Both the position numbers and the translations under genes were made by a program. From Candidatus Limnocylindrales bacterium (GTDB taxonomy: Bacteria; Desulfobacterota; Binatia; UBA1149; CAITLU01): a stretch of DNA of 64,000 nucleotides. The stretch spans positions 140,753-204,752 of the forward strand of contig DATNBU010000037.1 in assembly GCA_035571835.1 (NCBI GenBank), given 5' to 3'. Shown here piece after piece: positions 2,054-26,263 of this stretch (positions within the stretch are counted from its first letter, which is position 1; the number at the start of each line of letters is the position of its first letter). The notes beneath the pieces were generated by a model. It ran no database searches and was not told the origin of the DNA. It saw only the letters and a list, made by a program, of their open reading frames with translations.

Positions 2054-4558
2054 CTACTCGCAGCCGACCGGCTCGTTGCTTTCGTCGACGCCGTTCGGAC
2101 GCACGCCGTAGATCGGCAGCGGACATCCGCGCTCGAGTGCACCCAGATCCGGCGCCGCGCCCTGGAAGTGATCGGTGACGCCGGGAAGCACCGTGCCGGC
2201 ATCGACGGCGTTCGATGCAGCGTCGAGAGTCACATCGGCCGGGCTCAGCGTGAGCGTGTACGACGAAGGCGCGGCAAGACCGTTCGCGAAGATCGGCTCG
2301 GCGAGCAGCGTGCCATTCGTTTCCATCCCGCCGGCCTGCATCGCTGCGAAACTCGCGAAGCTCACCAGATCGCCCGGAGGAAGCCGGAAGCGAAACGCTC
2401 CATCGGGATAGTAACCGTCCGAATCGAACAGGCCGCCAACGATGAGCGCGGTCCAGTCCACCGCCCGACCGGGAAGCATCGACGGCCCGATGAAGAGGTT
2501 GTTGCGGACTTCGAAGTTGTGACTGGCCACTTCGGTGTACACGTGCAGCTCTTCGTCAGAAGTCACGAAAGTGTTGTTGTACGCGAGCACGCCGCTCGGA
2601 CCGAACTCCTGGCCGTTCCCGTGAAACTTCATCTGCTCGTCGGCGATGTTGACGACGACGTTGCGCAGCGCATACGCAGGCCCGCCGTAGATCGGCTGGA
2701 AGCTGATGGTCGAAAACGTATTCGTGAAGCGGTTGCGCCACGCACGCACGTTGCCTTCGCCGCCGTCGAGCTCGACGCCGTTGTCGTATGCCGACAGCAC
2801 TTCGTTGCCGTAGAAATCAACGGCGCGCGCGCCCGGCAGCTCGGTCTTCATCGCATCGCCGAAGCCGATGATCTGGTTGTGGCAGACCACGTGGCCATGG
2901 CCCTGCACGTTGATCCCGTCGTCGTTCGCGTTGTCGCCGCCGTTGTCGGTGTAGACCTCGGGCCACACGAGGCGGCCTTCGAGCACGTTGTCGCAGATGT
3001 AGAAGTCGTACTGGACCTCGCGCGTGGCGATGCCGAGCGTCGTGTCGATCGTGTGCACCCTGCGCACGACGTCTTCCACCGCGCCGGCCGTCTGGAAACG
3101 CAGCGCGCGGCTCGCGTTGCGCAGCGTCAGGTTCTCGACGTGCACGTAGCTGCCGTAGACCTCGAGCACGTTGCAGCCGGTACAGCCGCCGCCGTCGAGG
3201 ATGGTTCCGTCGCGGCTGGTGCCGCGGACCACGATCGGATTGTCCGCCGTTCCGCCGAAGTCGAGCACGAAAAGCCCGTTGTACGTGCCGTCGGCGAGCG
3301 TGATGACATCGCCGGCGGTTGCGGCATCGAGTGCCGCCTGAAGCTGCGTCGCATTGCTGACGGCAACGGAGTGCGGCGAGACCGGATCGGCCGGAACCGC
3401 GCGGGTCGTCGCCGTGAGCGTGATCGTGTCGTCGACCGGGCCGTCGGCGTCGACCATGTGAAGCTCGAGCTCGTATTCGGTCGCGGGCCGAAGGTCGAAG
3501 ATGCTGCCGGCAAACTGCTCGACGATGACGTTGTCGTCTCCCGACGGCACGGTCTCTGGCAGCACGCGCAGCAGCGGCAGCGCGTCGTTCCACGTGAGCG
3601 CGCCGGTTTCGCGATAGCGAAGCGAAACGGTCGCGTCGCGGTCCGCGTCGCCCGTGATCGGAAGCTGCACGCCGAGCGCCATCAGCGTGGGCCTGTCGAG
3701 CACTGCGGTTCCCGCGTGAAGCACCGGATCGGGACACGGATAGAACGCTTCGTTGCGTGCATCGAGCCGGTCGATGGTATCTTCGCAAAGCGCGACGAGC
3801 GCCGCCGAATCGAGGCACGACGGGCAGGTGCCCGCGACGAGCAGCCGCGACGTGACGGTGGCGTATTTCGAGCGCGCCTTGTTCTCGCAGCCTTCTTCGT
3901 CAAACGGCGGATCGTGCAGCGTGAGGCCCGACGACGCGGCTTTCTGATGGCACTTGACCACCGACTTCGCGAGCTTGGACAGGGAGAGACTGACGCGTCT
4001 CGTGCACGCGAGCGCATCGCTCGTAGCGGGAACGCTGCCGGCGTCGTCGCCGGACGGATCGAGCGACGCACCGCTGGTCGCGTCGCAGTACACATCGGCG
4101 CCGCGCGCATCGAGAGTGGTTTCGAGCGACGACGCTTCGCCTGACAGCAGCGACGGCACCGTGCTCGACGCGCATCCCGAGCTCGCCTCGAGATCGCCGA
4201 CCGCGCCGTCGAGAGCCGTGAGCGCATCGGCCTCGCACGCCTCTTCGTCGAACGACGACGGGTTGCCGAGGACGACTTCCGAATAGCGCGCGGCAGCGAG
4301 AGCGATATGGCACTTGCCGATCGCGCTCTCGAGCTTCGAGTAGGCGCCTGCCGCCGAATCCGAGCAGCGGCGAACGTCGGAACCGAGCGGCACGCATCCA
4401 CTGTCGTTGCCGCCGAACGGCTCGCCCGGACCAGGGCCGGGTGCAGCCGATGAAACCGCAGCGGCCAAAGAAACCGCAGCACTGAGCGCGAGTGAGAATG
4501 CGGCGAGACGTGCCGCCGGCCAACGTGGTGAAAACATATGCTGGCGCTCCCCCGCCAT
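2054..4558 (-). CDS. Secreted right-handed parallel beta-helix repeat protein (pectin-lyase fold-like) with three N-terminal ~60-aa Cys-containing repeats
   Basis: Signal peptide RLAAFSLALSAAVSLAAAVSSA. Beta-helix region NATQLQAALDAATAGDVITLADGTYNG...NVQGHGHVVCHNQIIGFGD...YGNEVLSAYDNGVELDGG. Repeats KLESAIGKCH.../KLAKSVVKCHQK... Confidence 0.7.
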   Translation of the reverse strand: MAGERQHMFSPRWPAARLAAFSLALSAAVSLAAAVSSAAPGPGPGEPFGGNDSGCVPLGSDVRRCSDSAAGAYSKLESAIGKCHIALAAARYSEVVLGNPSSFDEEACEADALTALDGAVGDLEASSGCASSTVPSLLSGEASSLETTLDARGADVYCDATSGASLDPSGDDAGSVPATSDALACTRRVSLSLSKLAKSVVKCHQKAASSGLTLHDPPFDEEGCENKARSKYATVTSRLLVAGTCPSCLDSAALVALCEDTIDRLDARNEAFYPCPDPVLHAGTAVLDRPTLMALGVQLPITGDADRDATVSLRYRETGALTWNDALPLLRVLPETVPSGDDNVIVEQFAGSIFDLRPATEYELELHMVDADGPVDDTITLTATTRAVPADPVSPHSVAVSNATQLQAALDAATAGDVITLADGTYNGLFVLDFGGTADNPIVVRGTSRDGTILDGGGCTGCNVLEVYGSYVHVENLTLRNASRALRFQTAGAVEDVVRRVHTIDTTLGIATREVQYDFYICDNVLEGRLVWPEVYTDNGGDNANDDGINVQGHGHVVCHNQIIGFGDAMKTELPGARAVDFYGNEVLSAYDNGVELDGGEGNVRAWRNRFTNTFSTISFQPIYGGPAYALRNVVVNIADEQMKFHGNGQEFGPSGVLAYNNTFVTSDEELHVYTEVASHNFEVRNNLFIGPSMLPGRAVDWTALIVGGLFDSDGYYPDGAFRFRLPPGDLVSFASFAAMQAGGMETNGTLLAEPIFANGLAAPSSYTLTLSPADVTLDAASNAVDAGTVLPGVTDHFQGAAPDLGALERGCPLPIYGVRPNGVDESNEPVGCE

Positions 4559-14913: not shown

Positions 14914-15070
14914 GCGCGGGTCCTCCGGCATCGGCTCAAAGCCGAAGGCCGTCGGCGAGTAAAATCGGCGGCGAAATGCGTGCTGCGGCGCGCTTCCTGC
15001 GCGTCGCCTGCCGGCGAGTGGACATCGGGCGACGAAGTGGCTAGCAGAAGGGCCTTCCACTGCTCGTTCG

Positions 15071-15146
15071 GTCGCATAGCTCAGCTGGTTAGAGCGCTCG
15101 CCTCACATGCGAGAGGTCCCTGGTTCGAATCCAGGTGCGACCACCA
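15071..15146 (+). tRNA. tRNA-Val (anticodon CAC)
   Basis: GGTCGCATAGCTCAGCTGGTTAGAGCGCTCGCCTCACATGCGAGAGGTCCCTGGTTCGAATCCAGGTGCGACCACCA; acceptor GGTCGCA/TGCGACC; anticodon loop CUCACAU; CCA encoded. Confidence 0.9.
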
Positions 15147-15214
15147 TCTTTGATTCCCTGCACGTCCCGCGAAGTCCGAAACACGAATTGTCAAGGGCGA
15201 ATGGCAGATGCCCC

Positions 15215-15349
15215 GCGGCTCGGATGAAGATGCGGGTGAAGCACATTGTTCCGCTGTCAGAGCAGGCGGTCGCCATTCTCGGGGAACTCGCAGTCAGCGC
15301 GGCGTACAACTTCGCCGAGCATCTGCCGGAGCGGCGCAGAATGATGTAA
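15215..15349 (+). pseudogene. Remnant of a P4-type tyrosine integrase (internal ~45-aa fragment only)
   Basis: ARMKMRVKHIVPLSEQAVAILGEL resembles the conserved P4-integrase segment ERMKMRRPHIVPLSxQAL; no N-terminal or catalytic RHRY region is present. Confidence 0.5.
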
Positions 15350-15612
15350 GCGTGGGCGAGCTACCTGAATGGCCTGAAGGCTGGGGCGGTGGTAGTGCCG
15401 CTGTTTCGCAGCGCCTAGAACCGGAACCAAATATCGATCGCTACTTGCGACGAGGGGGCCGTTCCTCCGATGGCGCAGTCCGTGGTTCGGTATGGCCGAC
15501 CGAAGCGCCGCCAACGCAATTGGCGGAAGATGAGGTCGACGATCGTCGTTTCCACTCCGGCCATGCAGACACACGTTGGGCGGTCTTTTCTATTCCGGTC
15601 CAAAACGACTTG

Positions 15613-17151
15613 CTATGGTTCTGCTTCGACATCCGCCTCGTCCTCCTCCAACTTCTGTCGCAACTCATCTAACGCCGCAACCGCCAGCAGTTCTCGTACG
15701 GGGTAAGCGATGGGTAACATTGGGGTCCGCGGGTGGCTGGCCTCACCTGTCGGAAGCTCAACGCGATTCCCCTCCTCGTCCTTTCGGGACAAAACCACCC
15801 CGTCTGACCTCACCATGCTAAACAGGTCGCCATACCGACGAGGTGCAACGCCGAGGAAGGGTCCCAGCACCATGCGGGCCGCTTGAGCATCCACCGCTGA
15901 ATCCTCTCCCGCATGATGGATCGCATCTCCGTGGAGAGGTAGAGCCTCACTTTTCGGATATGGCTCGATATAGACGATTCGCTTCACTCCCGCCGCAACC
16001 GCGTGCCGAGCGCAGTTGTGACACGGGAAGGTGGTCGTGTAGAGGACCGCGTTTCGGACACTCACGCCAACACGCGCCGCCGACAAGAGTGCCTCCATCT
16101 CCGCATGAACGGTTCGTCCATACTCGGTGATGTCCCGTAGCTTTGATTCGGAAAGCACGCGTGTCGCTTTCTCGACATCATCCACCAAGCCCTGTTCCCT
16201 AAGGGCCTCGGCAGCCCTCGCCGCGATTACTCGGAGACGTGCGGTGTTCGAGTCGAACCCAATGGCGAGGTCTCGCATGTCGGGATTGTCCTCAGCGCTA
16301 TACAGCCCGCCGCCGGGACGTGGGACTTCATTGTGCCCAACGCCGATCAGGTCCCCGGTTTCAGCGATGAGAGCAGCTCCGATCTGTCGTGCGAGCGCGC
16401 CCGAACGAATCGATGCTCCGAACGCTGCGTGCATCCCAAATTCGTCGAGCGTGGGGGTGTGGAAAGGGTTGCCGAATACCAAGTCGAGAAAGCGATGGAG
16501 GGCCGCCTGTGTGGACTCGTAGCTGGAAACATCGATGAAGACATCTGAAAGATGGAATGTATCTCGGGTCTGTTGCCCGAACTTTTTGTCCTCCTCTTCG
16601 TCCTCATCACGTCTCAAAAGCTTCTCCGCCTGCTCTTCGGAGAGACCTTGCGAGACTTGGAGATGGCGCTTGCGCAAGTTGCGTGGGGCGAAAGCGCCGA
16701 TCAGATAGAACCCGGGTCCGTAGATTTGACGTAGGGTCCGGACTTCCTCCGGGCGTTTCAGCGAATCAAGAACGTGAACGTGCCGGGGCAGAGTCGGATC
16801 CGGGTCTTCGATGTCCTCCGTCGCCTGTGCGCGGCGCTCTGAGATGTTGAACACGGCTGACAGCACGAGCGCATTGCAGTAACCGGACCGTCGCCGGAGT
16901 TCGTTTCCGGCGGTCATATATGAGTTGACGCGATTGAAGTAGGGGTCGCCTTCGATCGGCACGCCGAGAATCTCGGCGAAATTCGGAAGGTCGTCGCTCA
17001 GTTTTACAGTGTTGACCTCGTACCGCCGAACGGCGAACAGGTCGCGTAGAACCGACGTGACGAAATCGCGGTTGCAGCCAATTGGTGCGACCAGTCCAAT
17101 GATGAGTTCGGAGTTGGCGGTCGCAAAGAGTGAAACCTCAGATGTCCCCAC
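15613..17151 (-). CDS. AvcD/DCD-like anti-phage deoxycytidylate (dCTP/dCMP) deaminase candidate: C-terminal CMP/dCMP-type zinc deaminase domain after a ~300-aa N-terminal domain
   Basis: HAEMEAL...PCHNCARHAVAAGVKRIVYIEPYP is the H[AC]E...PCxxC zinc-binding signature of dCMP/cytidine deaminases. The 512-aa architecture matches described defensive deaminases. Located in the tRNA island. Confidence 0.7.
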   Translation of the reverse strand: MGTSEVSLFATANSELIIGLVAPIGCNRDFVTSVLRDLFAVRRYEVNTVKLSDDLPNFAEILGVPIEGDPYFNRVNSYMTAGNELRRRSGYCNALVLSAVFNISERRAQATEDIEDPDPTLPRHVHVLDSLKRPEEVRTLRQIYGPGFYLIGAFAPRNLRKRHLQVSQGLSEEQAEKLLRRDEDEEEDKKFGQQTRDTFHLSDVFIDVSSYESTQAALHRFLDLVFGNPFHTPTLDEFGMHAAFGASIRSGALARQIGAALIAETGDLIGVGHNEVPRPGGGLYSAEDNPDMRDLAIGFDSNTARLRVIAARAAEALREQGLVDDVEKATRVLSESKLRDITEYGRTVHAEMEALLSAARVGVSVRNAVLYTTTFPCHNCARHAVAAGVKRIVYIEPYPKSEALPLHGDAIHHAGEDSAVDAQAARMVLGPFLGVAPRRYGDLFSMVRSDGVVLSRKDEEGNRVELPTGEASHPRTPMLPIAYPVRELLAVAALDELRQKLEEDEADVEAEP

Positions 17152-17615
17152 GCGCCTCAGACTATAGAGGTTTGACGGCTTCCTGGCAGCTGAGCTGTGC
17201 GTTTCTCACTGAAGTCGCCGTCCGGACCCTTGCAGCGACGATTTGGCTGGGCTGCTTCTCGTGAGGCGAACAGTAACTTGGCTCACTTCGGGAGGACTGC
17301 CCATGCCACGCTCTTCGACAGCGGAAGCGACACAGCAACAATTCCTTTCAGCAATGGGCGAAGAATGGGCAACGCGGGCAGTCACGACGGCGGAGAAGCC
17401 AGCGTCGCGGATGTGCGTGTCGCCTACGACCTGCTCGAACACATCTTGTCCGAAGTATACGAAGGCAAGGGAAAGTCGCTGAAGGTACTCGCGAAAAAGG
17501 TAAACAAGAAGAAGGGGCCGGTAACATAGATGCGCTTGCCTGCTCTCCATATGGCGATCTCGCTAGGCGTGCGTGATCTTAGTCGCTCAATGGAACCAAC
17601 CCACGGACGCCACCA

Positions 17616-18500
17616 ATGAAATACGACAGATTCAATCGGTTCGAAGGGACGAGCTGGGCATTTTGGCAGTTCAATGAGTACGAAACTCAGATCAACAGCG
17701 CGTACTGGTCTGGGGTCGCGGCAGTTTCTCGCGCCAGCTACGAGATTCGGCGTAGTGCACCGCCCGTCAATGCAAGGGTGGTAATGCATGCCACGGGAAC
17801 GGACGCGCAGCGAATCTCGGCTGAGGGTCCCGCTTTTGTTGCGAATCTCGGCGAATTTCTTAAGTGGAACAGAGCCAGCTTCATTTTGGCAGCAACCGGA
17901 GCCTTTGAAACGTACATCTGGCGAGTCGTGTTAACTGCGTTGATGTCGGATCCTGCCGCGTTGCATGGCAAGTCTCGAGCAATCGATGGAGCGACTTGGC
18001 TGAAGTTGGGACTTCGACCGGACTACAGTGACATCAAGAAGCGGGTTACGAAGGATACGTGGTTCCAGCGCTATGCGGCTGTTCGGAATATCTTTGGTGA
18101 AATTCCAGCGCTGAGTAGTCGTGTTCCAGAATTAGATCAGATCAGAATTTTTCGTAACAACGCTGGGCACGCATTTGGGAGGGATTTGACGGTAGAACCA
18201 AATCTCACGGCGCGAACGACGGAACGCATGCGAACTATTGACGACACAAAGTTTAAGGAGTGGCTAGGTGTAATCTCGAAATCCGCAAAGGCCATCGATT
18301 CAGTGCTTGTCAAGAACCATATCGGTGATTTCGAGCCTATGATTCACTTTCACAACTACTATGAATCTCTTGGTACTGTGAAGCCGGGGATTAGCAGCGC
18401 ATTTGCCTCACAGTACAAGTTGGCCTTGGCAAAAACCGAAGGTCACTCTAAGGGCAACGAATATGCCCTGACACTGATTCGCGCTTACCTGAACGCGTAG
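17616..18500 (+). CDS. Hypothetical protein with an HEPN-like Rx4H motif (Abi_2/AbiD/AbiF-like)
   Basis: 294 aa, low GC; ELDQIRIFRNNAGHAFGRDL fits the HEPN R-x4-H motif (Abi_2 consensus lRNxxAH). Confidence 0.45.
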   Translation: MKYDRFNRFEGTSWAFWQFNEYETQINSAYWSGVAAVSRASYEIRRSAPPVNARVVMHATGTDAQRISAEGPAFVANLGEFLKWNRASFILAATGAFETYIWRVVLTALMSDPAALHGKSRAIDGATWLKLGLRPDYSDIKKRVTKDTWFQRYAAVRNIFGEIPALSSRVPELDQIRIFRNNAGHAFGRDLTVEPNLTARTTERMRTIDDTKFKEWLGVISKSAKAIDSVLVKNHIGDFEPMIHFHNYYESLGTVKPGISSAFASQYKLALAKTEGHSKGNEYALTLIRAYLNA

Positions 18501-18520
18501 CGCGCGACGCTACAGTCGCA

Positions 18521-19303
18521 GTGCCAGCCGTTCTCCCCATGCCTAACTTCCTCAAGCGATTACTGCTGAGGCATGTTTTAAAGAAACCCTCTCCGGATGT
18601 CGTCCCACGAAGCGGTGAGGCGGCGCGACAAGTTGACTGTCGTGTCGCGTACATTCGCCGAACAGAGCCTGAGCCGGAGGTTCTTGTCCAATCCGCGGGA
18701 GCGTCGGAAGTTACGGGCCTTCGTCGAGAGGCGGGTCGATTTCAAGTACCCTTGTCTCTCAGCTACGAAGATTTTTCAGCTGGGGATGTCGAGATTATCC
18801 ACTGGTATGGATTGACGAGTTTTCGATACGATGGGCTGTGGCGTTACGTCCTCGAAGGATTGACCGGCTTCGATAGAGCAAGCTTTCTCTACGATCGCGC
18901 ACGGCAGTTGGGGTTCAATCGGAAGCCACTACTTCGGTACAGCCTAACTGAATTGCTAGATACCCTTGTGGAAGCCGCACAACTTCATCCAACCGAGGAA
19001 CACTCCTCCGTATCGTTGCTAGTTCGCCGTTACGGCGAACGATGCATAGAGCACCCAGACTGGGAAACCGTCCGCGGGAGCACACAATTGTTTCTCGATG
19101 CGCTTGTGAGTTCTGATTCTTTGGAGCGGACAGCCACTGGCTATCGAGTGAAGCCTAAAGCGGTTCTTGCCCTGGCGGAGTTTCAAGAAGCCGAGCGACG
19201 TCACCGTGAGAACTTCCGTACGGCTAGAGCGATGACTCGTCTCACGGTCGTGCTCGTTATCATCGGAATTGTTCAGGCATACGTGACTTGGATGAGTCCG
19301 TAG
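18521..19303 (+). CDS. Hypothetical membrane-anchored protein (single C-terminal TM helix)
   Basis: 260 aa beginning 20 nt after the previous gene; C-terminal RLTVVLVIIGIVQAYVTWMSP; no recognisable domain. Confidence 0.45.
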   Translation: MPAVLPMPNFLKRLLLRHVLKKPSPDVVPRSGEAARQVDCRVAYIRRTEPEPEVLVQSAGASEVTGLRREAGRFQVPLSLSYEDFSAGDVEIIHWYGLTSFRYDGLWRYVLEGLTGFDRASFLYDRARQLGFNRKPLLRYSLTELLDTLVEAAQLHPTEEHSSVSLLVRRYGERCIEHPDWETVRGSTQLFLDALVSSDSLERTATGYRVKPKAVLALAEFQEAERRHRENFRTARAMTRLTVVLVIIGIVQAYVTWMSP

Positions 19304-19375
19304 TCCTCGGTGGCCGCGAGTGCTCACAAGTTGAGATGGTGAGAAACTAGAACCTTCAGGGCGTGGGCAAGCGTT

Positions 19376-20764
19376 TCATCTTGGCGCATCGGCCAAGTAC
19401 TGATTCACGTCGGTGAACAGCGTCCGAATGGATTCCAGATGCTCCCGCCGAATGGCTTCGTTCTTCTCGTTAAGTAGCCCCTCCACTGCAGCCCGACCAG
19501 GTCTTTCAGTCTTCGTGCGGACATCGTTCGCAGGTTGGGCAAAGAATCTGTAGTCGGGAAACCGTCGCCGAAGCTCACCGACGAGTTCTGCTTTGTCGGC
19601 GTCGAGGATTCCTACAACCTTCGAATAGCCCAACTCCGCCAGGACAGCGGCGAGGTGTGCCATATTCCCCGCTCCTCCAACGCCCCAACCGAAGAAGTCA
19701 CCACCGAGTTGCAGATTGAGTTCCGTGAGCACGACGTCATAGAAGACCACATCCTCCTGTCCTTCGACGAGGACTACCCGATCGTCGACGAAGAAAATCT
19801 CTCTCGCGTTGAGTCCGAGCAAGTGAGGATTGTTTTTATCGCGAAGAAGTCCGTAGAGATGTCCGGCCGTTTCAACCGACAACTGGGAGACTCGCACTCC
19901 ATCCTCACGGAGGTGCGCACGCGCAATCGCCATGCCGCTTTCGAGTGCCCTGAGATCGATCAGGTAGGGCGAGTGCGTTGCGATGACGATCTGACGGCTC
20001 GCCGCGTACTCGAATATTATGTTTGCCAACCGCCGCTGAAGAGCCGGGTGGAGTGAGAGTTCCGGTTCATCGATTATGATGAGGTCGCCGTCTTTCGAAT
20101 CATAGAGCGCGTCTACGATGTAGAGGAGGCTCACCAACCCCTCACCTAACCCTTCGCTGCTATGTGTGCCGCGCGCGTCTTGAAACTTGAGAAAATAAGT
20201 CCCTTGGTCAGTCTGATCGATAGTCCAGTTAGGGAGGGGTGAAACGAGTTTGGAGAATAACTCGTCGAAACCTCCTCGGTCGCGATTAACGGCGAAGAGT
20301 CGGTGAGTCAGCTCATGGAGGTTGGTAGATCGAGAGGACGGAAGCCCCCCAGCGTGCTGCGCATAGTCAACTCTGCTCCACGTCGCTTTGCTGAAGTACG
20401 GGTCGAAGAACCGGCGAGACGGCAGAACGAGCAGTCTCCGAAGCGTTATGAGGTCGCCCGTGGTCTCTCGCTCAGTTTCGCTCTGCCCACGTCGGAGGCT
20501 TCGAAGCGTAGCTATACCACCATCGCACGAAGCGACGATTTCCACCCTATCTCCGGCAGGCAGGTTTCGACGGCCTTGCGAGAACGAAGGAGGTTCCGCC
20601 ATTCGGATCGCGCGGAAGGCCTCGATGATCGTCGTCTTGCCCGAGTTGTTTGCGCCAAGGACCACAGTCAGTCCGCTGCCGGGTGTTCCTGTGGGCTTGG
20701 CAAGGTTGAGCTGCTGGGCTGTCTGGAACCCCCGCAGCCCGTGAATGCGAATGTAGTCGAGCAT
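19376..20764 (-). CDS. OLD-family ATP-dependent endonuclease (AAA ATPase + TOPRIM), class-1 stand-alone
   Basis: Walker A GANNSGKTT; Walker B LIIIDEPELSLHP; C-terminal TOPRIM-like VVLVEGQEDVVFY...GILDADK. Confidence 0.8.
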   Translation of the reverse strand: MLDYIRIHGLRGFQTAQQLNLAKPTGTPGSGLTVVLGANNSGKTTIIEAFRAIRMAEPPSFSQGRRNLPAGDRVEIVASCDGGIATLRSLRRGQSETERETTGDLITLRRLLVLPSRRFFDPYFSKATWSRVDYAQHAGGLPSSRSTNLHELTHRLFAVNRDRGGFDELFSKLVSPLPNWTIDQTDQGTYFLKFQDARGTHSSEGLGEGLVSLLYIVDALYDSKDGDLIIIDEPELSLHPALQRRLANIIFEYAASRQIVIATHSPYLIDLRALESGMAIARAHLREDGVRVSQLSVETAGHLYGLLRDKNNPHLLGLNAREIFFVDDRVVLVEGQEDVVFYDVVLTELNLQLGGDFFGWGVGGAGNMAHLAAVLAELGYSKVVGILDADKAELVGELRRRFPDYRFFAQPANDVRTKTERPGRAAVEGLLNEKNEAIRREHLESIRTLFTDVNQYLADAPR

Positions 20765-20928
20765 CCTCCTACTTTGAGCGGCGGTCCCGCACCCGGCGAA
20801 CTGCGTTGTGCGGATTGCGAGGAGGTAGCCGCAATCGCAGCGTTGGGAGGTGGGGGCAACTTTGGGGGCACTCGGCGAGGCAGAACTCCGACTCTTGCCG
20901 CGAGGTCAGGTACTTACCGCATCAATGC

Positions 20929-20950
20929 GATTCCAGGTGCGCACCATCTT
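20929..20950 (+). repeat. attR-like imperfect direct repeat of the tRNA-Val 3' end
   Basis: gattccaggtgcgcaccatctt versus tRNA aatccaggtgcgaccaccatctt. Confidence 0.6.
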
Positions 20951-23317: not shown

Positions 23318-26263
23318 GTGGGCGGAATGCCTGAGGCCGATCGCGAAGCACCGCGCATCGACGACACCGCGGAATGCATCTGGCGCGACGGCGAAAAGAT
23401 CGGCGTCCCTCCGAAGGCCTTCCTCGTGTTGCGGCGACTGATGGAACGGCCGGGGCAGCTCGTCACGAAGAGCGACCTGCTGGATACGGTATGGCCGGGC
23501 ACCTTCATCACCGAGACTGTGCTCAACAATGCCGTCGGCCAGCTTCGTCAGGCTCTCGGCGACGACACACGGCGGCCGAGGTTCATCGAGACCGTTCACC
23601 GACGCGGCTTCCGATGGATCGGGCCGTCACAAACTGCCTCCGCGCTGCCACCGGCTGCGATCGGTGACGAGATCGGTGTCGGCTTCGCGGCCGCCGACGA
23701 TTTCGTTGGTCGCGCGGAGACCCTTGCCGAGCTTGCGCGTCATCTTGCGCGCGCGGCCGCGCGTCAGCGCCAGCTCGTTTTCGTGACCGGCGAGCCGGGC
23801 ATCGGAAAGTCCGCTCTGGTCGAAAACTTTCTCCGTGGACTCGCCGCGTCCGATCCTGCGAGCGTCAACGTCGGGCGTGGAGAGTGCATCGAAGCTTACG
23901 GCGTCGGCGACCTGTACCGACCGGTGCGCGATGCGGTCGAGCAGATGCTGCAGCGAAGCGGCCCCGACACGCTGCGGGCGTTTCGCCGGCACGCTCCGAG
24001 CTGGCTGCTTTCGATGCCCGAGCTTTCGAGCGCTGCCGAGCTCGAGGAGCTTCGTCGCGCCGTCATCGGCGCGACCAGCGACAGTGTGCAGCGCGAGCTC
24101 GAACGTGCGCTAGAAGCAGCGAGCACCAGGGCTGTCGTCGTGCTCGTCATCGAAGACCTGCACTGGAGCGATCCTGCGACGGTATCGCTTCTATGGAGCC
24201 TGGCGGCGCGGCGCGAACCCGCGAGGCTGCTGATCGTCGGCACCTACCGGTCCGTCGACGCCATTGCGCAGCAGCACCCGATCATCCGGATGAAGCATGA
24301 GCTGAGCGCGAAGCGGCTATGCGTCGAAATCGCGCTCGAGGGGCTTTCGATCGACGGCGTCACATCCTTTCTCGACCTGCAGTTTTCCGGGCACCAGTTT
24401 CCGGCCGGGCTTGCGATCCCGCTTCACGAACAGAGCGCGGGCAATCCGCTGTTTCTGCTGAACGCTCTCGACGACTTCCGTCAGCGCGGATGGCTACGCG
24501 AAGAGGACGACGTCTGGCGATGCACCGTCGATCTCGACTCGATCGTGGCCTCGGTTCCCGAGAGCACGCGCGAGCTGGTCGGTTTTCGTATCGAGCAGCT
24601 GCCGGCAGCGACACGCATGCTTCTCGAGGCAGCCAGCATCGTCGGAGCGGGATTCGCCGCGCAGGCCGTCGCTGCAGCCGAGGGCGGCACGTGCGCGGAT
24701 GTGGAAACGCAGCTCGAGCCGCTGGCGCGGGCTGGGCAGTTCATCGAGAGCAGCGGCGAGGTCGTCTGGCCAAACGGCATTCGTGGTCGCGAGTATCGAT
24801 TTCGACACGCGCTCTACCGGCAGGTTCTCAGTCGCCACGTCACGCCGGCACGGCGCGCGCTTCTGCACCAGCGCATCGCGAGCGCTCTGGAAAGCGCGTA
24901 TGGCGAGCGCTGCAATGAAATTGCGGGACAGCTCAGTGTGCATTTCGAGCAGGCCGGCGACGCTGTGCGCGCGGCCGAGTACATCGACGTCCTCGCGAAG
25001 CAGGCCTACTCGCGTTCGGCCACCCACGAAGCCGAGGCGATGTACCGGCACGCCGTCGCGTTGCTGAAAAGCGGCCCGATGACTCCGGCGCGGCAGGAAC
25101 GGCTGCTCAAGTCGATGACTGCGCTCGGCATCGCGATGAGCACCGTGCACGGGCTCGGTAGCGCCGAAGCCGCCGAAGTATGGCAGGAAGCGCGCGAGCT
25201 CGGGCGGGCGCTGAACAGGACACCGGAGTACGTGGCGTCGCTCAGCGCGACGATCATGGCCAGGACCTATATGGGACAGGTCCGGGAAGCGCTGGCCATT
25301 GCTCAGGAAAGCCTCCTGCTCGCCGGAAGCGATCAATCGTCCAGTGCCGTCACCGTCGCGCACATGTCGATGGGGCAGAGCCTGCTGTATCTCGGCGAGA
25401 TCGACGCGGCGCTCGTCCATTCCGAGCGCGCTGTCGCATCGATCGATCTCGAAGCGCCCGAAGCGCTCCGCCTTGACGCTTCCGGCTACGATCCGTCGGC
25501 GCCGGCGACGCTTTCGCGAGGATGGTGTCTGGTCCTTGCCGGGCGCCTGCGCGAAGGAAGAGCGTTGACCGAGTCGGCGATCCGCATGGCTCGCGCCAAG
25601 CAGCAACCGTTCTATCTGATCTTCAACGTGAGCATGGCGGGACTGGTCGCGCTGATCCTCCGGGATCCTGCTCGGGCTCACGAGCTGGCGGCCGAGGCGC
25701 TGGCTATTGGCGAAGAAAACTCGCTGCCGTACGGCCGGGAGATGAACCAGATCGTCTGCGGCTGGGCCGACGTTCGCCGCACTCTCGATCCGAAACCGCT
25801 CGGCCGGATGCGCGAGATCCTCGACTCCATTCTCGGGACAGGGACGCTGCAGGTTTCGCGCGGATGCAGCATGTTCGCCGACGCGTGTCTGGCGGCGGGC
25901 CGCATCGACGATGCCTGCGAAGCGAACACTGCGGCGTTCGAAACGCGTGGGGAAGGACGCTTCTACGACGCCGAGTTGTTGCGCCAGCGCGCGGCGATCG
26001 TGCTGGCTCGTTCGAAGCAGGGCGGTTCGAGCTCCGAGCAGGCCGGAGAGCTGCTCGAGCAGGCGATCAACGTGGCGCACTCGCAGGGCGCGAAGCTGTT
26101 CGAGCTGCGCGCTCTCGTCGAGCTTTGCAGACTGCGGTCGAGCGACGGCTGGCGCGATGAGGCGCGCCAGCGACTCGAGGCTGTGATCGGCAGCGTCGAT
26201 GGTGACGACGATGAAATCGACCTGCGGGAGGCGCGTGAGGTGCTCGAAGAAATGAGGCGTTGA
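23318..26263 (+). CDS. Transcriptional regulator: OmpR/CadC-type winged-helix DNA-binding N-terminus fused to a STAND/AAA ATPase and a TPR-like C-terminal region
   Basis: trans_reg_C-like VPPKAFLVLRRLMERPGQLVTKSDLLDTVWPG...RRGFRWIG; Walker A VFVTGEPGIGKSAL; 981 aa. Confidence 0.8.
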   Translation: MGGMPEADREAPRIDDTAECIWRDGEKIGVPPKAFLVLRRLMERPGQLVTKSDLLDTVWPGTFITETVLNNAVGQLRQALGDDTRRPRFIETVHRRGFRWIGPSQTASALPPAAIGDEIGVGFAAADDFVGRAETLAELARHLARAAARQRQLVFVTGEPGIGKSALVENFLRGLAASDPASVNVGRGECIEAYGVGDLYRPVRDAVEQMLQRSGPDTLRAFRRHAPSWLLSMPELSSAAELEELRRAVIGATSDSVQRELERALEAASTRAVVVLVIEDLHWSDPATVSLLWSLAARREPARLLIVGTYRSVDAIAQQHPIIRMKHELSAKRLCVEIALEGLSIDGVTSFLDLQFSGHQFPAGLAIPLHEQSAGNPLFLLNALDDFRQRGWLREEDDVWRCTVDLDSIVASVPESTRELVGFRIEQLPAATRMLLEAASIVGAGFAAQAVAAAEGGTCADVETQLEPLARAGQFIESSGEVVWPNGIRGREYRFRHALYRQVLSRHVTPARRALLHQRIASALESAYGERCNEIAGQLSVHFEQAGDAVRAAEYIDVLAKQAYSRSATHEAEAMYRHAVALLKSGPMTPARQERLLKSMTALGIAMSTVHGLGSAEAAEVWQEARELGRALNRTPEYVASLSATIMARTYMGQVREALAIAQESLLLAGSDQSSSAVTVAHMSMGQSLLYLGEIDAALVHSERAVASIDLEAPEALRLDASGYDPSAPATLSRGWCLVLAGRLREGRALTESAIRMARAKQQPFYLIFNVSMAGLVALILRDPARAHELAAEALAIGEENSLPYGREMNQIVCGWADVRRTLDPKPLGRMREILDSILGTGTLQVSRGCSMFADACLAAGRIDDACEANTAAFETRGEGRFYDAELLRQRAAIVLARSKQGGSSSEQAGELLEQAINVAHSQGAKLFELRALVELCRLRSSDGWRDEARQRLEAVIGSVDGDDDEIDLREAREVLEEMRR

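What the first reader, a model, noticed from the sequence alone, without database searches (positions are those of the whole stretch)
15613..17615. AvcD/DCD-like deoxycytidylate deaminase defence gene with a 460-nt upstream non-coding region
The 512-aa protein ends in a textbook dCMP/cytidine deaminase zinc site (HAEMEAL...PCHNCARHAVAAGVKRIVYIEPYP). This follows a ~300-aa N-terminal domain with a degenerate P-loop-like start (IIGLVAPIGCNRD). That is the architecture described for nucleotide-depleting antiphage deaminases (AvcD / defensive DCD). In AvcID the toxin is controlled by a small RNA (AvcI) encoded next to the deaminase gene. Here 17152..17615 is a 460-nt gap with only a weak K-rich ORF (17197..17529), so it could hold an AvcI-like antitoxin sRNA.
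Basis: partly seen in the sequence, partly recalled or inferred. Interest (0 to 1): 0.7.

Follow-up and report, generated by a model that had tools for sequence, protein, structure and literature searches.

The report
Antiphage deaminase with overlooked micro-protein partner
The gene is a known, already annotated antiphage dCTP deaminase; there is no sign of the proposed upstream regulatory RNA, but an unannotated 63-residue gene overlaps its 3' end, is conserved beside most relatives and also occurs in phages.

Summary
The 512-aa ORF at 15613..17151(-) is real. It is an AvcD-family antiphage dCTP deaminase: it passes the NCBIfam equivalog cut-off (430 vs 400 bits), matches the PADLOC dCTPase model at 3.5e-149, and the identical protein is already named this way in NCBI.

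The idea of an AvcI-like sRNA in the "460-nt non-coding gap" finds no support.
- 17356..17529(+) is the 3' remnant of a truncated DUF4145 gene.
- A promoter-like site abuts the GTG start.
- The rest has no similarity to the upstream regions of 91 related loci.
- It shows no excess folding, no repeats and no Rfam match.
- Relatives have upstream gaps as short as 12 and 70 nt.

What is conserved lies at the other end of the gene. An unannotated 63-aa ORF at 15441..15632(-) overlaps the deaminase stop by 20 nt and has a strong Shine-Dalgarno site. Its core motif is FW..(I/V)E.TA..V..WPxWK, followed by a disordered tail. Homologues sit at the same position in 66 of 78 informative deaminase-selected metagenome loci, and divergently upstream in two more. 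Their codon usage shows selection at the protein level. E. coli AvcI-type loci lack this ORF. Four phage lineages carry the motif with no deaminase within 3 kb, once fused to an Acb2/Tad1 domain.

My best inference, not shown, is that it is a labile protein brake on the deaminase.

The parts
15613..17151 (-). Antiphage dCTP/dCMP deaminase of the AvcD family, 512 aa, GTG start. The N-terminal half is kinase-like and the C-terminal half is a zinc deaminase (H349-A-E351, P376-C-H-N-C380).
15441..15632 (-). Unannotated 63-aa micro-protein gene. Its ATG is at 15632 and its stop at 15443..15441. It overlaps the deaminase 3' end by 20 nt. The core is FWTGIEKTAQRVSAWPEWKR, followed by a Ser/Pro/Arg-rich tail.
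   Evidence: Searches show the sequence. An HMM of the family hits this ORF at 1.9e-18. Homologues lie at the same position in 66 of 78 informative deaminase-selected loci. Codon evidence supports protein-level selection. AF2 predicts a helix at residues 5-22 and a disordered remainder. The ORF is absent from all source annotations.
15641..15649 (-). Shine-Dalgarno sequence GGAGGAGGA, ending 8 nt before the micro-protein ATG and lying inside the deaminase coding sequence. This arrangement suggests translational coupling.
   Evidence: Sequence read. GGAG-type sites and offsets of -50 to +15 nt, often the 4-nt ATGA overlap, recur across homologous loci.
17161..17189 (-). Sigma-70-like promoter match, CTGCCA-17 nt-TATAGT. 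It ends 9 nt before the GTG start, which would give a leaderless or very short-leader mRNA.
   Evidence: This is a consensus match only: 2 sites were found against 0.8 +/- 0.9 in shuffles.
17152..17355 (.). Unassigned sequence upstream of the deaminase (204 nt). This is the only room left for an AvcI-like RNA. It shows no conservation, excess structure or repeats.
17356..17529 (+). 3' remnant (last ~55 codons) of a truncated gene for a ~255-aa DUF4145 protein. NCBI annotates it as the 54-aa hypothetical protein HXC52488.1. It is not part of the deaminase system.
   Evidence: GC phase 0.62/0.35/0.73. The representative search gave 74 hits; except for the identical 54-aa CDS and one repetitive protein, they align to query residues about 40-110, usually at the subject's C-terminal end. 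The hits carry DUF4145. tblastn finds no trace of the N-terminal 200 aa in 15000..19500.
17616..18500 (+). Neighbouring 294-aa gene related to RiboL-PSP-HEPN proteins (FRNNAGH motif). It is the downstream partner of the truncated DUF4145 gene and a separate defence-type module.
   Evidence: Homologues are named RiboL-PSP-HEPN by UniRef. In L109-L111 a 70%-identical homologue follows a 211-aa DUF4145 gene.
15070..15146 (+). tRNA-Val(CAC), the likely integration site of the island that carries the module. An imperfect copy of its 3' end lies at about 20925..20950.
   Evidence: (D12). GC falls from about 0.65 to 0.52-0.60 across 15-21 kb.

Best explanation
The locus is a two-gene nucleotide-depletion defence module carried on a decayed ~5.8-kb island next to tRNA-Val.

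Gene 1 is an AvcD-family deaminase. By homology to characterised members it converts dCTP/dCMP to dUTP/dUMP during infection and so starves phage DNA synthesis.

Gene 2 is a previously uncalled 63-aa protein, translationally coupled to the end of gene 1. It consists of one amphipathic helix ending in WPxWK plus a disordered tail.

Inferred, not shown: the micro-protein binds the deaminase and holds it inactive. Because it is small and disordered, it would turn over quickly. When a phage shuts off host expression, it would disappear and the enzyme would be released. That is the role the AvcI RNA plays in Vibrio and E. coli systems. Phage-encoded copies of the motif would then act as counter-defence by replacing the lost inhibitor.

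The 460-nt region upstream is not an AvcI locus. It holds a promoter-like site, about 200 nt of unassigned sequence, and the stump of a DUF4145 gene that lost its 5' ~200 codons; its break-point (about 17314-17356) lies next to the deaminase cassette.
For: Shown:
- Family membership and architecture of the deaminase.
- The micro-ORF has an ATG, a GGAGGAGGA Shine-Dalgarno site 8 nt upstream and a 20-nt overlap with the deaminase.
- Of 80 metagenome loci chosen only by the deaminase, 64 carry an HMM hit on the same strand at the deaminase 3' end. Two more do so where the deaminase is frameshifted, and two loci lack downstream DNA.
- In two further loci the gene sits divergently upstream.
- Starting instead from three independent small-protein hits, each lies at the 3' end of a 490-522-aa deaminase.
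- The same arrangement occurs in Catenovulum maritimum and on a Vibrio nigripulchritudo plasmid.
- Selection acts on the protein. The invariant Pro uses all four CCN codons, the conserved Val uses all four GTN codons, and third-position differences number 93 against 45 and 35 at positions 1 and 2.
- AF2 predicts a helix at residues 5-22 (mean pLDDT 91 for residues 11-20 and 82 for 21-30) and a disordered tail.

In favour of an inhibitor role (inference):
- E. coli plasmid loci of the AvcI type have the small upstream ORF and no downstream micro-ORF, which is a complementary distribution.
- Relatives with the micro-ORF have upstream gaps of 12 and 70 nt, too short for the 152-174-nt AvcI.
- Four viral-contig lineages encode the motif with no deaminase within 3 kb, once fused to an Acb2/Tad1 anti-defence hairpin domain.
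Against: - No experiment or complex model links the peptide to the enzyme.
- The gene order (toxin first) and the lack of a DNA-binding domain are atypical for type II antitoxins.
- Ten of 78 informative loci lack an HMM-detectable copy at E <= 1e-3. Several of these carry divergent variants (L053, L100, L068). Others lack it altogether (L069, L072, L078, L081, L088), and four of these (not L088) have an N-terminal extension instead.
- I did not examine the experimentally studied V. cholerae and V. parahaemolyticus loci. The peptide and AvcI might therefore coexist rather than alternate.
- Phage copies of the motif could bind some other target.
- The promoter call is only a consensus match in a Chloroflexota genome.
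Confidence: 0.45

Rival explanations
1. One reading: this is a type III, AvcID-like system. An sRNA transcribed from 17152..17615 in the deaminase orientation binds and inhibits the enzyme.
For: - In V. cholerae the avcD upstream gap is 504 nt. AvcI lies immediately 5' in the same orientation, and AvcI RNAs of different species share no sequence. Lack of conservation is therefore not decisive.
- About 204 nt remain unassigned (17152..17355).
Against: - No Rfam match.
- Folding z-scores of +0.22 and +0.52.
- No repeats.
- No similarity to the upstream regions of 91 loci, including relatives at 55-69% identity, while the downstream peptide is conserved in those same loci.
- 174 nt of the gap is the stump of an unrelated gene on the other strand.
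- A promoter-like site lies directly at the start codon.
- Relatives have 12-nt and 70-nt upstream gaps.
Confidence: 0.08
2. The micro-protein is a positive or sensing subunit rather than a brake. It could be an activator, an assembly factor or a phage-sensing adaptor needed for deaminase function. Phage copies would then act as decoys that titrate it or the enzyme.
For: - The same linkage and coupling data apply.
- Toxin-first gene order and the absence of a DNA-binding domain fit an accessory subunit as well as an antitoxin.
- Loci without the peptide often carry an extra N-terminal domain, which could be an alternative sensor.
Against: - E. coli and Vibrio AvcD enzymes are active alone, and what they need is an inhibitor.
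- The complementary distribution with AvcI-type loci is more simply explained if the peptide has the same function as AvcI.
Confidence: 0.27
3. The conserved element downstream acts as RNA, for example a 3'-derived AvcI analogue, and the reading frame is incidental.
For: - It is co-transcribed with the deaminase.
- AvcI itself contains small ORFs that are not needed for its function.
Against: - The open frame is kept in about 60 distinct sequences.
- Conserved residues are encoded by all synonymous codons and differences are in excess at the third position.
- Shine-Dalgarno sites precede the starts.
- Two loci keep the ORF in a different place and orientation.
Confidence: 0.04
4. The gene is a housekeeping dCMP deaminase (ComEB or Dcd-like) of nucleotide metabolism, not a defence gene.
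For: The deaminase domain resembles dCMP deaminases.
Against: - ComEB scores 51.8 bits against a 219-bit cut-off, whereas NF041025 passes its cut-off.
- The extra ~230-aa kinase-like N-terminal domain is present.
- The gene lies in a low-GC tRNA island beside HEPN and OLD-like genes.
- Relatives sit inside R-M operons and next to PIN/HTH and ubiquitin-like defence genes.
Confidence: 0.02

Closest known systems
AvcD / antiphage dCTP deaminase (Hsueh et al. 2022; Tal et al. 2022; NCBIfam NF041025; PADLOC dCTPase)
   Same: The architecture is the same: a kinase-like N-terminal domain followed by a zinc dCMP/dCTP deaminase. The catalytic HAE and PCxxC residues are conserved. The protein scores above the family cut-off and sits in a mobile island or defence context.
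   Different: It is about 33% identical to the E. coli plasmid AvcD-type proteins. The Gly-adjacent position of the N-terminal motif is Cys in this clade, where the family majority has Thr. The companion gene lies downstream and encodes a protein, rather than lying upstream and encoding an RNA.
AvcI (DifV) sRNA antitoxin of AvcID, a type III-like TA system
   Same: Proposed analogy of function only: a labile inhibitor encoded next to the deaminase and co-transcribed with it, which is lost when a phage shuts off host expression.
   Different: AvcI is a 152-174-nt minimal (~280-nt full) untranslated RNA located 5' of avcD. Here nothing comparable is detectable 5' of the gene, and the conserved partner is a translated 63-codon ORF at the 3' end.
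Type II toxin-antitoxin modules with the toxin gene first (for example HigBA or MqsRA; from general knowledge)
   Same: A small partner gene lies downstream, overlaps or abuts the first gene and is translationally coupled. The partner is predicted to be largely disordered and to bind through a single helix.
   Different: The partner has no DNA-binding domain. Neither neutralisation nor protease-dependent turnover has been shown. The 'toxin' is a metabolic enzyme.
Phage-encoded antitoxin mimics and Acb2/Tad1 sponge proteins
   Same: Phage contigs encode the WPxWK helix motif on their own or fused to an Acb2/Tad1 hairpin domain. This is the pattern expected of an anti-defence protein.
   Different: No activity has been tested. 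Acb2 and Tad1 sequester signalling nucleotides, not proteins. The fusion occurs in one phage lineage, found in several assemblies and IMG/VR contigs.

Membership tests
Antiphage dCTP deaminase (AvcD; NF041025 / PADLOC dCTPase) | Scores above the curated family cut-off over the full length of the profile | tested here: met
   NF041025 equivalog: 430 bits against a 400-bit cut-off, covering profile positions 1-433 of 437. PADLOC dCTPase: 3.5e-149.
Antiphage dCTP deaminase (AvcD; NF041025 / PADLOC dCTPase) | Two-domain architecture: a P-loop-kinase-like N-terminal domain plus a C-terminal deoxycytidylate deaminase domain | tested here: met
Antiphage dCTP deaminase (AvcD; NF041025 / PADLOC dCTPase) | Catalytic H-A-E and zinc-binding P-C-x-x-C motifs are conserved | tested here: met
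   H349, A350, E351, P376, C377 and C380 are invariant in 28 homologues.
Antiphage dCTP deaminase (AvcD; NF041025 / PADLOC dCTPase) | Depletes dCTP/dCMP on infection and protects against phage | not testable with these tools
   This needs expression, nucleotide mass spectrometry and phage challenge.
Antiphage dCTP deaminase (AvcD; NF041025 / PADLOC dCTPase) | Located in a mobile or defence context rather than a nucleotide-metabolism operon | tested here: met
   Adjacent to tRNA-Val and in a low-GC stretch. Neighbours are an OLD/AAA_21-TOPRIM ATPase and a HEPN-like gene. Relatives lie beside R-M genes, PIN/HTH genes and ubiquitin-like systems.
AvcID type III-like TA (with AvcI sRNA) | A non-coding RNA gene of at least ~152-174 nt immediately 5' of the deaminase, in the same orientation and co-transcribed | tested here: inconclusive
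   No positive signal: Rfam, folding z-scores, repeats and conservation. 174 nt of the gap is an opposite-strand gene stump. A promoter-like site abuts the start codon. Because AvcI has no conserved sequence, absence cannot be proven without transcript data.
AvcID type III-like TA (with AvcI sRNA) | The RNA binds the deaminase and inhibits it post-translationally | not testable with these tools
   Requires co-expression and binding assays.
Type II toxin-antitoxin (protein antitoxin) | A small partner gene adjacent to the toxin gene, co-oriented and usually overlapping it | tested here: met
   20-nt overlap with a Shine-Dalgarno site. The arrangement recurs in 66 of 78 loci.
Type II toxin-antitoxin (protein antitoxin) | The antitoxin carries a DNA-binding domain for autoregulation | tested here: not met
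   No Pfam, NCBIfam or PADLOC domain is detected. AF2 shows a single helix plus a disordered tail.
Type II toxin-antitoxin (protein antitoxin) | The partner directly neutralises the toxin and is degraded faster than the toxin | not testable with these tools
Biochemistry is needed.
Housekeeping dCMP deaminase (ComEB) | Scores above the ComEB equivalog cut-off as a single-domain protein of about 150 aa | tested here: not met
   TIGR02571: 51.8 bits against a 219.45-bit cut-off, matching only residues 346-400.

The most novel reading that the evidence does not exclude
Antiphage dCTP deaminases come with interchangeable 'safety catches': an upstream sRNA (AvcI) in enterobacteria and V. cholerae, a translationally coupled ~60-aa WPxWK micro-protein in most environmental lineages including this one, or a fused N-terminal domain. 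The micro-protein would be a new, minimal protein antitoxin that gene callers miss. Phages would have captured it, alone or fused to an Acb2/Tad1 domain, as an anti-defence factor that keeps the deaminase switched off.
Probability: 0.35. Interest if true: 0.75.

Novelty: new variant of a known kind. Interest (0 to 1): 0.55.

Why it matters
The dCTP deaminase defence is currently catalogued as a single-gene system (PADLOC, NCBIfam), or as deaminase plus AvcI RNA in the Vibrio and enterobacterial systems studied experimentally.

If the 60-aa partner controls the enzyme, three things follow.
- Most members of the family are two-gene systems whose second gene is routinely missed. It is uncalled in this MAG and absent from the gene table held for a Vibrio plasmid.
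- The activation logic known for AvcI, loss of a labile inhibitor, would have a protein solution as well as an RNA one.
- The phage-borne copies would be a new class of anti-defence protein.

All of this can be tested with one silent point mutation and a co-expression assay. If the peptide turns out to be irrelevant, the locus is simply an ordinary, already annotated defence gene.

Tried and rejected
- The original AvcID paper (Nat Microbiol 2022; DOI and PMC9830645) is not held. I used its bioRxiv version and the 2023 follow-up.
The metagenome scan with an alignment supplied the comparative set.
- Viral-contig scans with single small proteins (P0123, P0146) found nothing. A 46-aa query and the broad alignment A4 were rejected as unsuitable. 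A narrower motif alignment, A5, worked.
- The 211-aa DUF4145 protein of L109 has no BLAST similarity to the window remnant. The all-against-library HMMER search showed that the remnant belongs to a different, ~255-aa DUF4145 family.
- Pfam, PHROGs and NCBIfam give nothing for the 294-aa protein. Pfam and NCBIfam also give nothing for the 260-aa protein, and the only PHROG match is phrog_7611, of unknown function.
- Literature searches for a small-protein partner of AvcD or dCTP deaminase found nothing relevant in the held library. This is not proof that it is undescribed.
- I considered whether the Cys in GLVAPIGC signals an inactive kinase-like domain. I dropped the idea because that position varies across the family (T, S, A, V, G, C).
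Full report
OBSERVATION. The next long ORF, 17616..18500 (+), is divergent, so 464 nt separate the two start codons. The K-rich ORF at 17197..17529 (+) is there as well.

WHAT THE LARGE PROTEIN IS.
- Pfam finds dCMP_cyt_deam_1 (2e-14) and MafB19-deam in residues 236-401.
- The PADLOC dCTPase model matches at 3.5e-149.
- The NCBIfam equivalog NF041025, 'anti-phage dCTP deaminase', scores 430 bits against a 400-bit cut-off over profile positions 1-433 of 437. ComEB reaches only 51.8 bits against a 219-bit cut-off.
- The identical sequence is already deposited as HXC52487.1, 'anti-phage dCTP deaminase [Candidatus Limnocylindrales bacterium]'.
- In an alignment of 28 homologues at 41-68% identity, H349-A-E351 and P376-C-H-x-C380 are invariant. 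The N-terminal motif has the family consensus ELVxGLVxPVGT, so the Lys-less 'degenerate P-loop' is a family trait. The Cys in the window's GLVAPIGC is shared by the four closest relatives aligned, and that position varies elsewhere.
- No full-length relative has a solved structure by sequence search.
This part of the finding is correct and already known.

CONTEXT.
- tRNA-Val(CAC) lies at 15070..15146.
- GC falls from about 0.65 to 0.52-0.60 between 15 and 21 kb.
- An imperfect copy of the tRNA 3' end lies at about 20925..20950.
- Between these marks lie the deaminase, a RiboL-PSP-HEPN-like 294-aa gene, a 260-aa gene of unknown function (phrog_7611) and an AAA_21/OLD-TOPRIM ATPase.
This looks like a small, decayed defence island.

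THE UPSTREAM 'NON-CODING' REGION. Facts about AvcI come from bioRxiv 10.1101/2021.03.31.437871 and PMC10511110.
- AvcI lies immediately 5' of avcD, in the same orientation, and is co-transcribed with it.
- Its minimal functional length is 152-174 nt and the transcript is about 280 nt.
- It has no repeats and no sequence similarity between species.
- The V. cholerae gap is 504 nt.

In the window I found the following.
(i) No Rfam family matches apart from the tRNA and a sub-threshold match on the opposite strand of the tRNA itself.
(ii) Folding energies are no better than shuffles: z = +0.22 for 464 nt on the - strand, +0.52 for 17152..17364 on the - strand, and -0.03 for the + strand.
(iii) There are no tandem repeats.
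(iv) A blastn search (word size 7) of the 500 nt upstream against the upstream regions of 91 other deaminase loci gives nothing better than E of about 1. That set includes relatives at 69%, 61% and 55% protein identity. Upstream similarity appears only between near-identical or closely related contigs.
(v) A -35/-10 match, CTGCCA-17-TATAGT, at 17189..17161 ends 9 nt before the GTG. This is a consensus match only.
(vi) The gap is partly a gene remnant.
   - 17365..17529 (+), within the 17356..17529 remnant, has GC1/GC2/GC3 of 0.62/0.35/0.73.
   - An exhaustive HMMER search of the 110-aa ORF gave 74 hits. Apart from the identical 54-aa CDS (P0171) and one repetitive 1175-aa protein, they align to query residues about 40-110, in the longer subjects at or near the C-terminal end. 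Many subjects are about 250-260 aa. Identity is 45-62% and E reaches 1e-11.
   - The five subjects I scanned carry DUF4145.
   - tblastn finds no trace of their first 200 residues anywhere in 15000..19500.
   - NCBI calls the stump a 54-aa CDS, HXC52488.1.
   - In loci with a 70%-identical homologue of the 294-aa gene, an intact DUF4145 gene sits directly upstream of it.
   So a DUF4145-HEPN pair has lost the 5' ~200 codons of its first gene, and the break-point (about 17314-17356) lies next to the deaminase cassette. Only about 204 nt (17152..17355) are left unassigned.
(vii) In relatives with called genes the upstream gap is 12, 70, 138, 187, 253, 307 or 804 nt. Two of these are far too short for an AvcI-sized gene.
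Nothing supports an upstream sRNA. Because AvcI lacks sequence conservation, only transcript data could exclude one outright.

WHAT IS CONSERVED INSTEAD. Gene calls on the closest relatives showed a 61-67-aa ORF overlapping the deaminase 3' end.
- The window has the same ORF at 15441..15632 (-): MSKQNHSKSFWTGIEKTAQRVSAWPEWKRRSS....
- Its ATG lies 8 nt after GGAGGAGGA, and it overlaps the deaminase by 20 nt.
- A profile of seven such ORFs found 26 proteins among 5.8 billion. Most are 58-67 aa, none has a Pfam domain of its own, and all are unnamed or called 'hypothetical protein'.
- Three of these, taken at random, each lie at the 3' end of a 490-522-aa deaminase, with a 44-nt overlap, a 4-nt overlap or a 1-nt spacer.

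The converse test used 80 metagenome loci selected only by deaminase motifs, at 38-45% identity.
- 64 have an HMM hit on the same strand at the deaminase stop.
- 2 more have it where the deaminase is frameshifted.
- 2 loci lack downstream DNA.
- Only one other hit reached E <= 1e-3 anywhere else in these loci. That hit (L103), and a weaker hit in L031 found in a later relaxed search (E 0.0027), are the same gene moved about 450-700 nt upstream in divergent orientation.
- Several 'negatives' carry recognisable variants, for example IWEEVDRAAAKAPEWVK in L053.

Starts cluster at -50 to +15 nt from the deaminase stop, often as the 4-nt ATGA overlap, and are preceded by GGAG-type sites.

The conservation acts on the protein. 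The invariant Pro is encoded by CCT/CCG/CCA/CCC in 16/21/13/11 sequences. The conserved Val uses all four GTN codons. Among moderately diverged pairs, differences number 45/35/93 at codon positions 1/2/3.

AF2 predicts one helix (residues 5-22; mean pLDDT 91 for residues 11-20 and 82 for 21-30), a turn at WPEW, and a disordered tail.

The window's ORF is absent from every source annotation. A Vibrio nigripulchritudo plasmid copy is also missing from the PLSDB gene table, which is incomplete. The Catenovulum maritimum copy is called as a gene, and there the deaminase follows hsdM by 12 nt.

DISTRIBUTION RELATIVE TO AvcI. E. coli plasmid deaminases (33% identical, annotated as anti-phage dCTP deaminase) have the 61-aa 'hypothetical' ORF 35-55 nt upstream that marks the AvcI position. 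They have no downstream micro-ORF. A subclade lacking the peptide (L069, L072, L081) has an extra ~110-aa N-terminal extension; L078, which also lacks it, has a different extension. The regulatory partner therefore looks modular.

PHAGE COPIES.
- One profile hit, P0145, is a 114-aa protein. Its N-terminus, YWDFVERTANEVAKWPAWK, matches the motif, and its C-terminus is an Acb2/Tad1 hairpin domain (1.2e-13).
- It sits among short co-oriented ORFs on 48-kb and 8-kb IMG/VR viral contigs.
- Further viral contigs carry the motif. A 47-kb contig has an orphan 46-aa ORF (HMM 6e-11). A 26-kb contig has it at the C-terminal end of an ORF (7e-9). An 11.7-kb contig has it at the C-terminal end of a 227-aa ORF (4.5e-8).
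- No deaminase HMM hit lies within 3 kb in any of these.
- phrog_29728 gives a weak match (E = 0.002).

MECHANISM.
- Shown: deaminase family membership, the two-gene operon structure, protein-level selection on the peptide, and its complementary distribution with the AvcI-type loci that I sampled.
- Inferred: the peptide binds the deaminase and restrains it, turns over quickly, and is lost on phage-induced shut-off. That would be the protein counterpart of AvcI, and phage copies would replace it as counter-defence. I put this at about 0.45.
- The main rival, an accessory or sensor subunit, I put at about 0.27.
- An upstream sRNA I put at about 0.08.
- Against a classical type II antitoxin: the toxin gene comes first and the peptide has no DNA-binding domain.
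- I could not model the complex and did not see the V. cholerae or V. parahaemolyticus loci, so the peptide and AvcI may coexist.

NOVELTY AND VERDICT. The deaminase itself is known and already annotated, and on its own it is ordinary. The proposed sRNA is unsupported. The conserved, mostly unannotated micro-protein partner and its phage homologues did not appear in the literature I could search. They would make this a new variant of a known system. Interest is 0.55, driven by the partner gene rather than by the original claim.

Noticed in passing
window 15070..15146 and about 20925..20950: The 3' end of tRNA-Val (CGAATCCAGGTGCGACCACCATCTT) recurs imperfectly about 5.8 kb away (CGATTCCAGGTGCG--CACCATCTT). 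The two copies bracket the low-GC stretch and look like attL/attR of a small integrated island.
   Followed up: partly
window 15107..15349 (+): A short ORF next to the tRNA contains HIVPLSEQAVAILGEL and matches the Phage_integrase domain weakly (E = 0.12). It may be the remnant of the island's integrase.
   Followed up: no
window 17356..17529 (+) and 17616..18500 (+): A 5'-truncated DUF4145 gene (only the last ~55 codons survive) is followed by an intact 294-aa RiboL-PSP-HEPN-like gene (FRNNAGH). Homologous loci L109-L111 have an intact DUF4145 + HEPN pair, which suggests an uncharacterised two-gene defence-type module that is disabled here.
   Followed up: partly
window 18521..19303 (+): A 260-aa protein with a hydrophobic C-terminal segment. 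Its only match is phrog_7611, of unknown function (1.9e-10). It lies directly downstream of the HEPN-like gene.
   Followed up: no
window 19376..20764 (-): A 462-aa AAA_21/AAA_15 ATPase with a weak OLD-like TOPRIM match. PADLOC's best hits are AriA, Old, NsnB and HEC-01A. It is probably a single-gene OLD-family defence nuclease in the same island.
   Followed up: no
L112 1272..1616; L114 and L115 2501..2842 (IMG/VR contigs 3300012041_000008 and 3300012175_000063): A 114-aa phage protein fuses the WPxWK helix motif of the deaminase partner to an Acb2/Tad1 hairpin domain. It is a candidate dual anti-defence protein.
   Followed up: partly
L118 3001..3138; L123 about 2980..3105; L122 2467..3150: Three other viral contigs encode the motif: one as an orphan 46-aa ORF, two at the C-terminal end of larger ORFs. 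No deaminase lies within 3 kb.
   Followed up: partly
L069, L072, L081 (deaminase ORFs starting at about 2036-2144); L078: Deaminases that lack the downstream peptide carry an extra ~110-aa N-terminal extension (e.g. ...LNWFxSTGTLQFQG...). The upstream regions of L072 and L081 are about 60% alike. L078 has a different N-terminal extension. These could be alternative regulatory modules.
   Followed up: no
L103 1775..2056 (-); L031 1764..2030 (-): In two loci the micro-protein gene is not at the deaminase 3' end. It lies about 450-700 nt upstream in divergent orientation, so the linkage survives rearrangement.
   Followed up: partly
L124 (Catenovulum maritimum KQ130485.1): The deaminase and micro-ORF are inserted between hsdM (12 nt upstream) and an HNH gene of a type I R-M locus.
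   Followed up: no
window 23318..26263 (+): A 981-aa protein with an N-terminal winged-helix (OmpR/PhoB-type) DNA-binding region and a partial match to the TOMM kinase/cyclase fusion model (4e-44, far below its cut-off).
   Followed up: no
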